Under the pieces are notes generated by a model that was not told the origin of the DNA, did not search any database, and saw only the letters and a list, made by a program, of their open reading frames with translations. A stretch of DNA of 64,000 nucleotides from assembly GCF_963921235.1 (NCBI RefSeq), contig NC_086097.1:130760001-130824000 (forward strand), written 5' to 3'. The position numbers and the translations under genes were made by a program. Positions 11,459 to 28,766 of this stretch are shown piece after piece; position 1 is the first letter of the stretch, and each line of letters opens with the position of its first letter. The DNA is from Mobula hypostoma. Lineage: Eukaryota.

Positions 11459-11784
11459 AAATAAGTGATTGTTTACATTATGTATCCTTTTATTCTTTCC
11501 ACCTGAAAATACTATGCTCTCTTATGCTTCTGGTAATTCTTTTGAAACTGAGGCATGACAGGTAACTGCAATATTTCTGAAACATGAAATTTCACATAAT
11601 GCAGAAAGATTAGAGACTAGTTAGTCTTATTTCAGGGATACCCACCAACTGTTTGCCAACCTTTCATGCGGAGGAGAGACCAGTTTAGCAGACTCAGAAG
11701 TCAAAAATGTGAACAGAACACACCTCAACTTCTATATAGCAACAAATTGTAAAAGATTGTATGTTCATATCAACTATTAGGTAA

Positions 11785-12385
11785 AAGTGACAGGTTTTCT
11801 TGTAAGCACCAGCCAAACTTCAAGATCCTAGGCATCAACATTTCAAAGCAAATATCCTGGACCCAACATATTGATTAAATCATGAAGAAGGTACACCAGC
11901 AGTTATACTTCATTAGGAGTTTGAGGATTTGGTATGGTACTAAAGACTCCATCAAATTGGTTATATCATCCCCTGGTATAGAGGCTTCAATGCACAGCAC
12001 TGGAAAAAGCTGAAGAGGGTTGCACTCAGCCAGCTGTTTTATCGGGACTAGGCTCCCTATTATTAAAGACATCTTTGAAAGGCAGTGCCTCAAGAAGGCA
12101 GCATCTTTCATTAAGGACCCTCACATCCAAAACATGCCCACTCTTCTCATCACTACCATCAGGTAAGTAGTACAGGAGCCTGAGGCTGCACACTCAACAT
12201 TTTAGGAACAGCTTTCTCCCCTCCCCATCAGATTTCTGAGCCGTCCATGAACACTAGCTCATTATTTTGTTCTCATTTTGCACTACTTACCTTTTTGAAA
12301 TTTAAAGTATTTTTACCAATTACGCTGCTAGGAAACAAAAAAAATCATGAACGTTATGAACAGTGATAATAAACCTGACTCTGAT
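11785..12385 (+). mobile_element. Rex1/Babar-like LINE 3' fragment
   Basis: Decayed FKILGINIS...SW and QQLYFIRSLR peptides; (CTGATT)-type tail. Similar to the copies at 44.5k and 59k. Confidence 0.7.
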
Positions 12386-19745: not shown

Positions 19746-20669
19746 TTACAGTGTCCTTATCAATATTAAGCAATTTGCATATGAAAATATTCATCTAAAA
19801 TACAACTCAGTTACGATTGATGCTATATTTATTCCTTTAACACTGTGTTCGGCCCTGCTCCCCGGCTATCAGTGACAGTGATTATTTTCAACAGCTAGCC
19901 CTTCGGAAAAGAATCACGTCCAGGTCAGACCAGGGAGGTGGCAGGTCCTTGACTGAAAGGCATTACTGAACCAGTTGGGTGTTTACAATAACTGTTCATT
20001 AGTTTTTTTTCCCCCTGGTATTAGCTCATCAAATACCAGCTTCATTGAATTCAATTGCACAGCTTGCCATGACAGAATTTTTGGAACTCTTTAATGACTA
20101 CACTACTGTATCCTTATGAGTCTCCATAGCATCATTAATGGGAATCAGAGAATGCAGTGTTCAATAATGACAGGAGCATTATACTAAGAAACATGCGTGA
20201 TCACCACTGGCAATAATAATCACATCTTCCAAGGACAGCTTCCCAACTAGCCTGACACACACTCATTTATATGCTCTAACTTGTTTACCTTTTGCAGAGC
20301 TGTTCCAGACTTTAATTTGTTTCTCTTGCATGACATTCTCCCTATCACCATCTACACTCTATTCCTGCATCACTTTGAAGCAAGCTTGTTTGGAGCATCT
20401 AGGTCTTTTTGAAGACTATGCAGGGCTGTTGGAGGTGTGAACCAGAATCAGAGACAGGCATTTCCAGAGTTGGTACACAGCAAAAATCAAAGGAAAATTC
20501 AGAATAGAAGAGATAGACTTCGCAACTGGGAGAGTGGTGAAAGAATGTCTATGCATCTAAGAATGGATAAGGTGTAAAGGGAAAGAACAGGGGAGTTCTT
20601 TCTTGCAATACTGTAGGCTCAGTGTGCGCTCTGAATTACCTGAACACCAAAATTGCTACTATAGTATAA

Positions 20670-20880
20670 TCCATCTTCCCCATCACCTGGTCTCACCTAC
20701 CATCACGTGCCAGCTTCTATTCCTCCCCCTCCCCCACCTTCCTACTCTGGCTTCTGTTCCCTTCCTTTCTTAGTCTTCACGAAGGTTCTCGATCTGAAAT
20801 ATTGACTGTGTATTTCTCTCCATTGATACTGCCTAACTTGCTGAGTTTCTTCAGCATTTGGTGTATTACTCCAAGACATT
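20670..20880 (+). repeat. Degenerate Penelope terminal-repeat/SINE-like fragment
   Basis: 'agtcttcacgaaggttctcgatctgaaatattgactg...gatactgcctaacttgctgagtttcttcagcatt' aligns by eye with 11358-11450 and 27844-27939. Confidence 0.6.
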
Positions 20881-22532
20881 TACGACTTTATCTGGCTCTG
20901 AGCGGGTGGCATGCTTATTTAATAAACTGAAATCTGGGAATTACTTGGGAAAATAATCATTTATAATATAATTAGATTCGCTGCATGAATTCAAGAACAG
21001 TAAAGGAAAACCAGTAGAGGATGTTTGAAAACTATCGATAAGATGACAAAAAGGAATGATGTGATTCACTGAGAGGAGGAATCGGCAAACTGACCCACAA
21101 GCGAATAATGGGATGTATTTAAATTCATGAGGAACAAATCAAATATATTTGTGTCTTGAGGAAGGTCTTCAAAAGGGAGAAGGGATAGATAGGGAAGGAA
21201 TTCCAGAGGGTGGGGCCTAGTTGACTTCAGTGTAAGGTTAAAATGGGGAAGGAAATTGACACAGAAAATCTGGTGGTGGGATGGGGGGAAAATGAAAGAT
21301 TGTAGGGTTGATAGTGGTTTGAGATGAGAACCGCAAAAAGCAGGGATCTAAAAGACCCAAGAAGAATTGAAAAGGGAGGTATTCTATTACTCATATTCCA
21401 GTTGTGGATTTTCTATACAAGATTAATGCCGAAAGGAGTATGTGTTGATGTGATGCTCCGATAACTCATGTCAGTGTGTTCTGGTTATGAGGCCCTCCAT
21501 CCACTTGTCTATCTTGGGACAATGAGAAGTCAAAATTGCGGCTTCAAATTTCAGTGAGCTGTGGAATACTAGGAATTGATGTGACAATTGACATAAAATA
21601 GGATTAAAATTGCGAACAGTTGAGTAAATAAAAACAATATAACTTCATCGCAAAGGAAGCCCCTCATTCAGGCACTCACGTTAGAACAATTTATATTTTA
21701 CGAAATATTAATCTATGGCTTTCAGATTCTGATTGATCCAAATAATTGACTTTTTTAATTCCAAGGCTACTTTAAAAAAATAGTGACATTATTTTTAGAA
21801 ACAGATTTTGGGAAAACAGAAAATGAAAAGTGTTATTTTCATTTTTACAGATGAAAGTTTTATTTTCAGATATGGTTTTAAGGGGGAAAGTGATATTACA
21901 ATCTTCCCCAGAAACAGAACCTTAAATGTTTTTTTGCATTGATAACGCACATTTGAAGAAGTTATTTTTTACTTAATATCACAAAGAGAAAAACATTCCT
22001 TCTGCTTCAAACACCTTTTTAATGTTTAAGGGATTCAATTCTTGATCAATAATTACAAGAAAAAAATTAACAATTTGGCTATTTTATATCTGCCACTTAA
22101 TTTTGACATTTAATCCGTTGTCATTAACCACTTTCTAAAGATTTTATTCAATGGTACCTTACTTAACTAATAAACACATCTAAGTCACAAATGTACAATT
22201 AGGTTAATTGTCTGTGCACAGCCATTAGACAAGTTTCACAGGATGCCAATCAAAAGTGGCCAATTTTTCGTTCTGCCATGCACAGCTAGTGAAGTGAGAG
22301 GAACTTCACTGCCCCTTCTCAGGTCAGAATCGAGCAAACTGATTAGGGAATCGGAACCTGCCTTTCTTCACTCAAAGTGAACCAGTATGTAAGTGGTAAA
22401 TTAATTTACAAAAATGATTTCTTCTAGCCAATATCTTTACTTCCCACCTTCGAAATACTGTTGAACATTCCCCAACTGATTTATGCCTTACATGTACAAT
22501 GCCTCTGCTATATTTACTCAACTCCCCTCAGT

Positions 22533-22890
22533 CAGAATCAGATTTATTATCACCGGCATGTGACGTGAAATTTGTTAACTTAGCAGCAGCTGTTCAATGC
22601 AGTACATAATCTAGCAGAGAAAAAAATAATAATAATAATAATAAAAAACAAGTAAATCAATTACATATATTGAATAGATTTAAAAAATGCCCCAAAACAG
22701 AAAAAGTGTATATTAAAAAAAGAGTGAGGTAGTAGCCAAAGATTCAATGTCCATTTAGAAATCAGATGGCAGAGGGGAAGAAGCTGTTACTGAATCGCTG
22801 AGTGTGTGCCTTCAGGCTTCTGTATCTCCAACCTGATGGTAACAGTGAGAAAAGGGCATGCCCTCAGTGCTGGAGGTCCTTAATAATGGT
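22533..22890 (-). mobile_element. Rex1/Babar-like LINE 3' end
   Basis: Reverse complement of the 3' UTR seen at 45060-45365; 'tcagaatcaga' tail. Confidence 0.7.
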
Positions 22891-25680: not shown

Positions 25681-27030
25681 CGAGAGTAACTCAGATATAC
25701 TGATTATAACGATACTCTGGTTAGTGACATTTGTACCTACAGCAACCTTTATCTTTTCTATATTTTTATGTCTCTTTATTGGCTCAAACCTAACCCTCAT
25801 TTCTGACTTCACTATTCTTGCTACCCCTAAACTGGTAAGAACATTCTCATCTGTAATATTCACTAACTCGCAAAACAAATCTCAGAAACTGCTTATGGTT
25901 AAGATTTCCTATTGTTAGCTGCAATGTTAGGGCAGAGCAAGGAGAAAAATATGTGAGTTAAGAATCACCGAAGAAAGTGGGTGACTCAGAATGAGGCATT
26001 CAAAACCTTGAAACTGAAATGTGAGTGACACAGATTAAAAAAAAGTGAACTAAAAGCTGGAAGGAAAACAATTAAAATACATGCACAAGGGAAAATAATT
26101 TAGAAAAGCACAGATGAGAAAGCAGATGAAGGCAAGAAAAACAGCCAATCATTGTGCACATTGTGATTCTGGAAGGCAAAAGGGACAGGTACAACTTACT
26201 TTGGATAAAGCATCTTATTTCACTTAAAGGGCACAATTTCAAATTATTCCTAAACCTTGCACTGATTTACAAAAATACTGAGCATAAATTCATTTACTAT
26301 ATACTTCAAACAAAGAAGCAAAGCTCTGCCTGCCTTGAGAAAGTAGCAGATGAATCAAAATGTAAATTTATGCCAACCAGAAGGCATTGTATACAAACCA
26401 AGGGGTAGGTTTACAATACTGAAAGGATTTAGTTGCACCTAAGGCTCATGCAGATTGTCAGTTGTTCTTCAGTCAACGTGGAAATAAAAAGAGTGCCACT
26501 GGTTTCTCTGTTTAGAGATAATATTGCTTACTTGGAAAAACCTCATTCGGCCAACACTGAATGATTTAAAAGGGAGACATCAATTGAACAATTTTGCTAA
26601 ATAAAGCTCTGGGGCACAATAGTAAAAGCAGTTTTCTTCAATAAAATATGCTTTTAGAATGGTGCTTCAGTGATTGCAAAACACTGGCAACATCCATCAT
26701 TCAAAGTACAAAAATATTCAATGAGATAAACAATGATCCACTTAGATTCTTTTTCCTTGGCCTGCACTGTATGTAATTCACTGTATGCTACATTAATATG
26801 GCTCAGTTAAATTATGAAAGTTTTTTTTAAATCTTACTTTCAACACAAGAACACACATTGCAAATTACTATTTAGTCATCCAGTTACAATTTAATTTACT
26901 TTGATTACTTTCCTTTTCTTCAAAAAAAAAGATTTATACAAGTGAACATGAGCCAGTGACAGATTTTAAATGGCAGACATATTCAATATCACAATATTTT
27001 CCCAATTTTAAAAAACAAAAAAAAACTGAC

Positions 27031-27276
27031 CTCATCAGGACTGGAGGCTTGGTATGTGCGGTTTTCATCGCTGAAATCCTGATCGGCCTCAGCATATTCT
27101 GTTTCCCCACGTGATTCATAGACAGGTGTAACATTGTGGCAAAGTGCAATGGCTTTCACAGCTTCATGGATACGGCTGTGGACCGACTTGCGAACTTTTG
27201 GAGCAGATAAAGTGGTTTTACTTGATGGGGTGTTGCTGGTGTTACTTCCTGTCATGTGGCTATGTGAATTGTTGCC
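27031..27276 (-). CDS. ATP9B: ATP9B internal exon (246 bp): GNNSHSH...[31 protein letters not shown]...[19 protein letters not shown] (N-domain)
   Basis: P4-ATPase LCHNV and YQASSPDE motifs. Acceptor TTTAAG|, donor |GTCAGT; phase 0/0. Confidence 0.93.
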
Positions 27277-27711
27277 CTTAAATAAAACAGAAGTCAAATT
27301 TTCCCATTTTATTTCCAGATAAAATAATTATTTTGCAATGCAGTGGCCTGGTCTATTTGGCGCACTGATACTAAGCTGTGACACGAGGGTGGGTGGTGTA
27401 TGGAAGACAAAAAAGTGTATGGTAACATTTAATTCATGCAATTTCATATCAGCTTATCATACCAAAACCACAATACTTAAAATATTAACATTTCATCTTA
27501 ATATTTTGCAGAGGCACATGTTATTTGCAAGTAACACCCAAGTCTTTTATAACAGAATCAGTACCACTGGCCTATAAATACAATGTAAATACTTTCACAA
27601 GTTCATCATAACTTTTCATTGAATTCCCAGGAACAAGAACATATTGTTCATCTTTGGGCAAACTTAAGATGTTGCACCAAAAATCAAATTATCCCAGCAT
27701 CAGAATAGTTA

Positions 27712-27939
27712 ACACAAGGAATTCTGCAGATGCTGGAAATTCAAGCAACACACATCAAAGTTGCTGGTGAACGCAGCAGGCCAGGCAGCATCTCTAGGAA
27801 GAGGTACAGTCGACGTTTCAGGCCGAGACCCTTCGTCAGGACTGTCCTGACGAAGGGTCTCGGCCTGAAACGTCGACTGTACCTCTTCCTAGAGATGTTG
27901 CCTGGCCTGCTGCGTTCACCAGCAACTTTGATGTGTGTT
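27712..27939. mobile_element. Non-coding palindromic mini-element derived from a Penelope terminal repeat
   Basis: TSD ATCAGAATAGTTA at 27699-27711 and 27940-27952. 96-bp arms 27747-27842 and 27844-27939 with one mismatch. Sequence resembles the termini of the element at 9412-11458. Confidence 0.88.
27844..27877 (+). ncRNA. Minimal hammerhead ribozyme motif (Penelope type); mirror copy on the minus strand at 27809-27842
   Basis: GTC-CTGACGA-AGG(gtctcgg)CCT-GAAAC-GTC-GAC: CUGANGA and GAAA cores, GUC triplet, stem I GTC/GAC, loopless palindromic ACGT stem III. Confidence 0.7.
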
Positions 27940-28154
27940 ATCAGAATAGTTATATATGGTAGATCTTGATGTCTTTATTTTGATAAAATGCTGTTAAATG
28001 AACATTCTGTAACTGAATACAAAAATAATTTAAGTAATTTCCCCCTCCTTTTCGTTGGATGGCCTCAAAAATCAGAGACAACCCACAACTTATTATCAGT
28101 TCTCAGTGTACGAGGTAAATAATTACATTTACAAAAAAAAGCATCTACCTTGAT

Positions 28155-28325
28155 GCAAGCATTAGATAGATTTTTACATAGTAGGGGAATTAAGGGTTAT
28201 GGGGAAAAGGCAGGTAGATGGAGCTGAGTTTACAGACAGATCAACCATGATCTTACTGAATGGCGGGGCAGGCTCGATGGGCCGGATGGCCTACTCCTGC
28301 TTCTATTTCTTATGGTCTTATGTTC
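28155..28325 (+). repeat. CR1 3' UTR fragment
   Basis: 'tagatagattttt...gggttatggggaaaaggcagg...ggcctactcctgcttctatttcttatggtcttatg' CR1-type end. Confidence 0.7.
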
Positions 28326-28766
28326 ATTGCAAATTATTTTCCAGCTACCTGCCAAGTTCAAAAGCTTGACAACAGCACAACTGAAGTACCAAAAGTTTGA
28401 TAATATCGTGTCAGGATTACTAGCATTGCACAGATTTTACATAACACATTTGAAATGAGCATCTTCCCTTTTTCTAGAATAATTATATCCAGTTTTACTA
28501 TTTATTTTTCTCATTTTATTATAAATTTCCTCTAAACATGAAATACAGGATGAAGCATCATTTTCAAATTTGATTTGTAAAGGCATGTTTGTGATCAGGA
28601 TTACAGTTCCTGTGCTTTAAGAACAAGTAAATACGACTCCCAAGAGTCTTATAGCATTTTTTTTTAAAAAATGGAAGATTGGTAGCTACAGTGGAGCCTA
28701 ACGGGGCCATTAACTTTCAGTCAAGAGTAACATTAATTTAAATTTGACCACATTCTGTAGAAACAA

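What the first reader, a model, noticed from the sequence alone, without database searches (positions are those of the whole stretch)
27699..27952. TSD-flanked 193-bp near-perfect palindrome carrying a hammerhead ribozyme core on each strand
Seen: 96-bp arms with a 1-nt spacer and one mismatch, a 35-nt unpaired extension on the left, a perfect 13-bp TSD, no coding capacity, and CTGACGA-stem-GAAACGTC cores on both strands. Known: Penelope-like elements carry minimal hammerheads with a palindromic stem III that can cleave as dimers, and they often form inverted termini. Inference: this is a recent insertion reduced to the ribozyme-bearing terminus, either an extreme fold-back truncation or a self-contained non-autonomous, retrozyme/MITE-like family. 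In ATP9B pre-mRNA it would form a ~96-bp hairpin ~470 nt upstream of an exon. That hairpin would mask the ribozyme and could be an ADAR/Dicer substrate.
Basis: partly seen in the sequence, partly recalled or inferred. Interest (0 to 1): 0.75.

Follow-up and report, generated by a model that had tools for sequence, protein, structure and literature searches.

The report
Shortest two-armed Penelope retroelement insertion
This hairpin-shaped 241-base insert in an ATP9B intron of a cartilaginous fish consists of two head-to-head end-scraps of a very abundant Penelope-like jumping gene, likely laid down in one event; its self-cutting RNA motif is predicted to be locked inside the hairpin, so it is probably an ordinary dead copy and not a new element.

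Summary
In detail: 96-bp arms, one mismatch, 35-nt one-sided extension, perfect 13-bp TSD, minimal hammerhead core per arm. A related species holds the empty site with one TSD copy (one contig), so it is a real, young insertion. The arms are the terminus of a Penelope-like element (PLE): a 2-kb RT-bearing relative with the same anatomy lies at 9412-11459. Head-to-head truncated arms, palindromic junctions and a 30-40-bp tail are published PLE features. Own-species contigs show many different arm-to-arm junctions (14 distinct among 15 of 570 joints shown), so this is the short end of a continuum; how many copies share this exact centre could not be counted. The ribozyme is predicted masked (65 kcal/mol penalty), only one copy lies in any transcript, and Rfam finds no hammerhead. 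One open point: both arms begin at the 5' edge of helix I, just after a splice-acceptor-like motif. The scan's earlier notes report the same architecture and edge hot spot elsewhere in this genome. Verdict: new member of a known kind; interest 0.2.

The parts
27699..27711 (.). left target-site duplication (13 bp)
   Evidence: identical to 27940-27952; one copy only in the empty site of organism C: contig 25 of run X9 joins 27698 to 27940 (table 8)
27712..27746 (-). 35-nt PLE 'tail', present on the left arm only
   Evidence: aligns with the tail of the copy at 9412-9444; 471 own-species contigs leave the reference before 27712 into low-agreement (0.42) sequence (table 7); tail described in PMC8557442 and PMC11167929
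27747..27843 (-). left arm: inverted, 5'-truncated PLE terminus (97 nt, including the apparent spacer T)
   Evidence: parental sequence continues behind 27843 in 391 X1 contigs
27844..27939 (+). right arm: 5'-truncated PLE terminus without tail (96 nt)
   Evidence: 73-83% identical to the termini of the RT-bearing copy at 9412-11459
27806..27845 (-). minimal type I hammerhead motif in the ATP9B pre-mRNA sense; 6-bp helix I (partly created by the junction), predicted cleavage 3' of C27812
   Evidence: cleavage position inferred from hammerhead consensus (recalled numbering)
27844..27877 (+). minimal hammerhead motif on the + strand; 3-bp helix I
27940..27952 (.). right target-site duplication (13 bp)
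27031..27276 (-). downstream ATP9B exon (context); the insert lies in an intron of about 8.9 kb
   Evidence: covered inside a 5,235-nt contig of run X15 (RNA by guess)
9412..11459 (+). context: older, broken Penelope-like copy with RT and the same two-armed, one-tailed, 13-bp-TSD anatomy
   Evidence: RVT_1 E=8.5e-6; tblastn of P0053, an RVT_1 + GIY-YIG protein, over residues 441-870

Best explanation
The 241-bp insert consists of two head-to-head, 5'-truncated copies of the end of a very abundant Penelope-like retroelement between a 13-bp target duplication, and it was likely made in one retrotransposition event and is probably inert. Inferred mechanism: the element's GIY-YIG endonuclease nicked both strands 13 nt apart in AT-rich intron DNA; each free 3' end primed a first-strand cDNA, one from the outer RT start site (giving the 35-nt tail) and one from the inner site (no tail); both cDNAs stopped at the 5' edge of hammerhead helix I, within one base of each other, and were joined there, which makes a near-perfect palindrome. 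Shown: anatomy, empty site, kinship to an RT-bearing PLE, varied junctions in other copies. Inferred: dual priming, end joining, inertness. In ATP9B pre-mRNA the antisense arm is transcribed first, so the hammerhead is predicted to be zipped into the hairpin as it emerges and not to cleave.
For: Empty site with one TSD copy in organism C (X9 contig 25). Left junction identical in own-species contig 1 (27001-27737, 0 differences). Same anatomy in the RT-bearing copy at 9412-11459. Both arms read as cDNA (antisense) outward-in from the two TSD ends (sequence). Literature: inverted 5'-truncated partner and one-sided 30-40-bp tail (PMC8557442 passages); palindromes at inverted junctions, 8-10-bp TSDs (PMC3846280); PLE protein cleaves and extends both strands, tail = sequence between two RT start sites, hammerhead cleavage not needed in vitro (PMC11167929); opposite-strand min-HHR pairs 100-700 bp apart already noted (PMC4209133). 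Arm-to-arm junctions vary: 14 distinct among the 15 of 570 joints shown, left-arm loss 2-89 nt, right-arm loss 1-71 nt. Core nucleotides unpaired with probability <=0.003; forcing the hammerhead costs 65.5 kcal/mol; prefix folds zip at once.
Against: No listed contig of the own-species run spans the centre or is shown across the right junction, so the exact centre is unverified. Copies with this exact centre match the reference and are not counted. Several shown junctions have 5-15 times single-copy depth, and a contig of organism B spans nearly the same centre (27773-27891, 3 gaps) at depth 59.5 against about 6.6-8.2 for unique flanks: compatible with hot spots in a huge family, but also with secondary amplification. 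Joint sides are only 20-29 nt and likeness was set to 88, which the tool flags as error-prone. The empty site rests on one contig of depth 5.9. Dual priming for inverted PLE inserts is my inference; PMC3846280 prefers self-priming on an antisense template.
Confidence: 0.78

Rival explanations
1. A self-propagating non-autonomous hairpin family: the palindromic unit is itself transcribed and retroposed in trans by the PLE protein.
For: Recurrent junction depths of 5-15 times single copy; near-same-centre contig in organism B at about 8-9 times flank depth; pLTR sequences suffice for mobilisation in trans in a rotifer (PMC3846280).
Against: At least 14 different junctions among those shown, none dominant; same anatomy at 2 kb in this window; the hairpin is predicted to bury the region that, in the anole element, the protein needs (first 172 nt of the ORF region; transfer to this family is inference); no tandem sense hammerheads.
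Confidence: 0.1
2. Same class of insertion, but made by fold-back self-priming (one template copied, snapped back and copied again), not by two primed cDNAs.
For: Arms identical but for one private change; 1-nt offset at the centre; self-priming proposed for palindromic PLE junctions (PMC3846280).
Against: The parental continuation behind 27843 is not complementary to the arm end, so no pre-existing stem is available to prime (table 7; inference); fold-back does not by itself explain why one end has the tail and the other stops 35 nt short.
Confidence: 0.25
3. A longer inverted-repeat insertion whose middle was later deleted in the germ line, or collapsed in the assembly.
For: Centre not spanned by a listed own-species contig; PLE inverted structures trouble assemblies (PMC8557442).
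Against: Flanks are not mirrored, TSD and empty site are exact, left junction is confirmed; both breakpoints fall within 1 nt of a natural edge of the element, unlikely for a random deletion.
Confidence: 0.07
4. A functional intronic RNA element (regulated ribozyme, or ADAR/Dicer substrate) acting on ATP9B.
For: Predicted -207 kcal/mol hairpin with one A-C mismatch in the pre-mRNA sense, 470 nt upstream of an exon.
Against: Absent in organism C at 3% flank divergence (21 of 698), so not conserved; ribozyme predicted masked; min-HHR monomers showed no activity in vitro (PMC4209133). Incidental editing is plausible but is not function.
Confidence: 0.04

Closest known systems
Inverted (head-to-head) insertions of EN+ Penelope-like elements with pLTR, one-sided tail and TSD, e.g. 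Pen2a_Av (PMC3846280, passages and Discussion read; PMC8557442, passages read)
   Same: TSD, two 5'-truncated arms head to head, 30-40-bp tail on one end, palindromic junction, AT-rich target
   Different: Extreme size: no ORF between the arms, arms of 97 and 96 nt, both starting at the helix I edge
Poseidon of Anolis carolinensis, PAc (PMC11167929, parts 1-2 of 4 read)
   Same: Hammerhead upstream of two alternative 3' ends 30-40 nt apart; similar spacing (cut site about 25 nt after the CUGANGA ATG-equivalent position here, 26 bp there)
   Different: Here that codon reads ACG; clade of this fish element (Poseidon, Neptune or other) was not determined
Minimal type I hammerheads (min-HHR) of metazoan PLEs (PMC4209133, Results read)
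   Same: CUGANGA core, unpaired A before helix II, GAAAC-GUC with no helix III loop, short helix I; opposite-strand pairs close together already reported
   Different: Helix II is short (4 bp, G-U at its base) against 7-8 bp in Schistosoma; the two motifs here overlap the junction and mask each other
Non-LTR retrozymes (PMC7229834, passages read; bioRxiv 10.64898/2026.07.22.740005, part 1 of 5 and passages read)
   Same: Small, non-coding, hammerhead-bearing, PLE-derived, long TSD
   Different: Retrozymes are head-to-tail tandems with canonical type I hammerheads that release circular RNA; this is head-to-head with one masked minimal motif per strand
MITEs (recalled definition)
   Same: Short, non-coding, inverted repeats, TSD
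   Different: Ends are asymmetric by 35 nt, the repeats are retroelement termini, and no transposase-type parent is implied

Membership tests
EN+ Penelope-like element insertion | Sequence is the terminal repeat of an element encoding PLE-type RT and GIY-YIG endonuclease | tested here: met
   73-83% identity to both termini of the copy at 9412-11459, which hits RVT_1 and aligns to an RVT_1 + GIY-YIG protein through residue 870. The direct parent subfamily's ORF was not in hand.
EN+ Penelope-like element insertion | 5'-truncated copy with adjoining inverted 5'-truncated copy (head to head) | tested here: met
   parental continuations
EN+ Penelope-like element insertion | 30-40-bp tail on one end only | tested here: met
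   35 nt, 27712-27746
EN+ Penelope-like element insertion | Target-site duplication created on insertion | tested here: met
   empty site in organism C, one contig
EN+ Penelope-like element insertion | Clade assignment by RT phylogeny | not tested
   no labelled reference PLE proteins in hand
Minimal type I hammerhead (min-HHR) | Conserved core with helices I and II and no stable helix III | tested here: met
   but Rfam models give no hammerhead hit, and the isolated arm's lowest-energy fold pairs the core
Minimal type I hammerhead (min-HHR) | Self-cleavage (as dimer) | not testable with these tools
   needs an assay; predicted masked in context
Non-LTR retrozyme | Head-to-tail tandem units each with a same-strand type I hammerhead | tested here: not met
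   head-to-head arms, one sense motif per strand
Non-LTR retrozyme | Expression as self-cleaved linear or circular RNA | not testable with these tools
   only contigs available
Self-propagating palindromic (MITE-like) family | Many copies with one fixed centre and shared private changes | tested here: inconclusive
   junctions vary widely (15 of 570 shown), but exact-centre copies are not counted and no genome was held
MITE (DNA transposon derivative) | Terminal inverted repeats reaching both ends | tested here: not met
   35-nt unpaired left end

The most novel reading that the evidence does not exclude
Both arms are complete run-off copies of a discrete short (about 130-nt) Penelope RNA whose 5' end lies at the helix I edge, set by a 3' splice site or a transcription start there rather than by ribozyme cleavage. 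Perfect hairpins with this centre would then be a recurrent end product of dual priming, a direct footprint of how PLEs form head-to-head junctions, and some might be re-mobilised as a hairpin family. Basis: arms start at the A and the G of an AG preceded by a pyrimidine tract in 3 of 3 other copies in the window and in both parental continuations; the D. virilis Penelope intron ends at the 5' end of helix I (PMC4209133).
Probability: 0.25. Interest if true: 0.55.

Novelty: new member of a known kind. Interest (0 to 1): 0.2.

Why it matters
As a locus it matters little: one of very many copies of a Penelope-like terminus, probably neutral. It is useful as a clean, dated, minimal example (empty site known, 241 bp) of the PLE head-to-head insertion, whose mechanism is unresolved in the papers read. 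If the shared stop at the helix I edge reflects a discrete RNA end, such minimal hairpins would make the PLE template and junction mechanism directly testable. Young perfect hairpins in introns are also candidate sources of double-stranded RNA, untested here.

Tried and rejected
No whole genome is held, so the genome-wide table of arm lengths and centres could not be made. Rfam: no hammerhead at E<=10 on 3 kb or on one arm, nothing at gathering score in 64 kb; the miRNA-family hits are below gathering score and reflect the hairpin. Pattern scans for the motif found 0 matches in viral contigs, metagenome contigs and prokaryote genome contigs. No RNA holder is on record as RNA among the runs listed; X15 is RNA by guess, has no cover over the intron flanks, and cannot show editing, strand or level; this is no evidence either way. 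Presence of the insert in organism B is undetermined: no listed X6 contig crosses either junction. Summed contig depth was not used as a copy number. Turn at the ribozyme cut site: rejected, both arms retain the whole motif and start about 30 nt upstream of the cut. Coding role: no support (weak PLE-protein matches to the other copy's arm, best E 0.004 in a tiny search space, treated as noise). Paper searches with no hit: Penelope + stingray + transposable elements; Penelope + non-autonomous + MITE + hairpin + shark; twin priming + Penelope gave 3 unrelated papers (listing only). Lunse et al. 2017 was not held; its dimer result is known here only through a review (PMC6765202 passages). Sequence look-ups in earlier findings returned nothing; one search returned only unrelated palindromes.

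Full report
Observation. The structure is as described: arms 27747-27842 and 27844-27939, one mismatch G27788/T27898 and a 35-nt unpaired left extension, and a perfect 13-bp direct repeat at 27699-27711 and 27940-27952, which chance would give at about 8e-5 even with generous boundary freedom. The fold is far beyond shuffles (z -29.6, 0 of 200). Each arm holds a minimal hammerhead core. Rfam detects no hammerhead here; the identification rests on agreement with the min-HHR description in PMC4209133 (Results read), whose authors needed a relaxed descriptor. The host gene is ATP9B on the - strand: the exon at 27031-27276 has best full-length shark hits named ATPase IIB, seven exons map in the window, and the insert lies in an intron of about 8.9 kb, the palindrome 470 nt upstream of the exon. 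The protein hits point to a cartilaginous fish.

It is a real, young insertion. Four runs were laid on 27001-28500 (contigs only). One contig of organism C joins 27698 directly to 27940, removing exactly the 228-bp element plus one repeat copy: the empty site. Its left flank differs from the window at 21 of 698 bases, so the insert is younger than that split, on the evidence of this one contig. An own-species contig matches 27001-27737 without difference, confirming the left junction; no listed own-species contig spans the centre or is shown across the right junction. Three letters of this copy (27756, 27794, 27820) are read by 63-78% of the depth in runs X1 and X6 but 12-26% in X9, which suggests a subfamily that expanded after the split from organism C.

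What the arms are. They are 73-83% identical to both ends of a broken 2-kb element in the same window, 9412-11459. That element hits RVT_1, aligns to an RVT_1 + GIY-YIG protein over residues 441-870, and has the same anatomy: 241-nt inverted arms, a tail of about 31 nt on the left end only and a 13-bp TSD with one mismatch. This is the published PLE insertion unit: inverted 5'-truncated partner plus one-sided 30-40-bp tail (PMC8557442, passages), with palindromes at the inverted junction (PMC3846280, passages and Discussion). Opposite-strand min-HHR pairs 100-700 bp apart were already noted. The terminus is very abundant: 116,539 contigs of run X1 were laid on the 1.5 kb, almost all on this element and on a second repeat at about 28160-28320; 471 leave the reference just outside the tail into low-agreement sequence; 391 and 251 continue behind 27843 and 27844 into two parental bodies (24 of 1,849 loose-end rows shown). 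The apparent spacer T is thus part of the left arm.

One-off or family? Of 570 joints, 15 were shown; 14 are left-arm-to-right-arm junctions, all different, losing 2-89 nt of the left arm and 1-71 nt of the right arm relative to this copy (the one opposite-strand joint was left out of that table). So two-armed mini-insertions form a continuum. Against a firm conclusion: copies with this exact centre match the reference and are not counted; breakpoints further upstream cannot appear as joints; sides are 20-29 nt at likeness 88; several junctions have 5-15 times single-copy depth; and a contig of organism B spans nearly the same centre at about 8-9 times flank depth. Hot spots in a huge family explain this, secondary amplification is not excluded. 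No genome was held, so the direct test was not possible.

Mechanism. Each arm reads as first-strand cDNA inward from one TSD end. In vitro, the anole Poseidon protein cuts and extends both strands, starts reverse transcription at two internal sites whose interval is the tail, and does not need ribozyme cleavage (PMC11167929, parts 1-2 of 4). I therefore infer two staggered nicks 13 nt apart, two cDNAs from the two start sites, both stopping at the same spot and joined head to head. The published alternative is self-priming on an antisense template; I give dual priming the better odds because it explains the one-sided tail and because the parental sequence offers no stem to prime from, but this is inference. 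The stop point is not the cut site, which lies about 30 nt inside each arm. It is the 5' edge of helix I: the left arm starts at the A and the right arm at the G of an AG that follows a pyrimidine tract in 3 of 3 other copies in the window and in both parental continuations. The D. virilis Penelope intron ends at the 5' end of helix I (promoter and intron in PMC2377424, passages). The same letters also fit a loose initiator consensus (recalled; 3 of 3 copies). The region is pyrimidine-rich anyway (0.73-0.81 over 100 nt against 0.87-0.93 over the last 15, two copies), so this is a lead only. It matters because a natural edge would make the same centre recur without any self-propagating family.

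Ribozyme and host. A transcript of either strand carries one sense motif, preceded by its own antisense, so no cis dimer is possible. In the ATP9B sense the hairpin is predicted at -207 kcal/mol, core bases are unpaired with probability <=0.003, forcing the hammerhead costs 65.5 kcal/mol, and growing prefixes zip immediately. Single min-HHRs showed no cleavage and dimers little. Helix II here begins with G-U where the copy at 9542 has G-C. The hairpin has one A-C mismatch in the pre-mRNA sense, a favoured ADAR context (recalled); editing and small RNAs could not be tested. A 5,235-nt contig of the RNA-like run X15 contains the exon without its intron flanks, from another sample of unknown genotype.

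Earlier notes. The scan's notes on other DNA of this genome describe the same two-armed, one-tailed insertions and a breakpoint hot spot at the helix I edge. They are unchecked leads; this locus fits them, and they supplied the id of PMC4209133. I did not find a paper on short palindromic PLE derivatives in sharks or rays, in a library that lacks most subscription papers; supplements were not read and may hold such examples.

Verdict. Observation confirmed; interpretation partly supported. A new member of a known kind: the shortest form of a Penelope-like head-to-head insertion, probably inert. Interest 0.2; the discrete-RNA reading has probability 0.25 and would deserve 0.55.

Noticed in passing
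window 9412-11459: Broken Penelope-like copy (RT, frameshifted C-terminal part) with 241-nt inverted arms, one-sided tail and 13-bp TSD with one mismatch; lies beyond the last ATP9B exon mapped by tblastn in this window.
   Followed up: yes
window about 20640-20870 (+): Old single-arm copy of a related terminus with a decayed hammerhead core (about 70% identity).
   Followed up: partly
window 11345-11361 (+), 9543-9559 (-), 20760-20775 (+): Pyrimidine tract plus YAG directly before hammerhead helix I in all three other copies: candidate 3' splice site or initiator at the spot where both arms of the finding begin.
   Followed up: partly
table 5, joint 27711/27743, opposite strands: 6 contigs each in runs X1 and X6 join the tailed end to a position near the tailless end in opposite orientation: tail-to-tail junctions, from tandem units or insertion into the element's own end.
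   Followed up: no
window about 28160-28320: A second, unrelated high-copy repeat about 200 nt from the insert; its start is also covered by the organism C contig, so it is likely older.
   Followed up: no
window 11819-12312, 22532-22889, 44538-45361, 59002-59770; 38083-38294 and 42309-42521: Two further dispersed repeat families at 68-77% identity; not identified.
   Followed up: no
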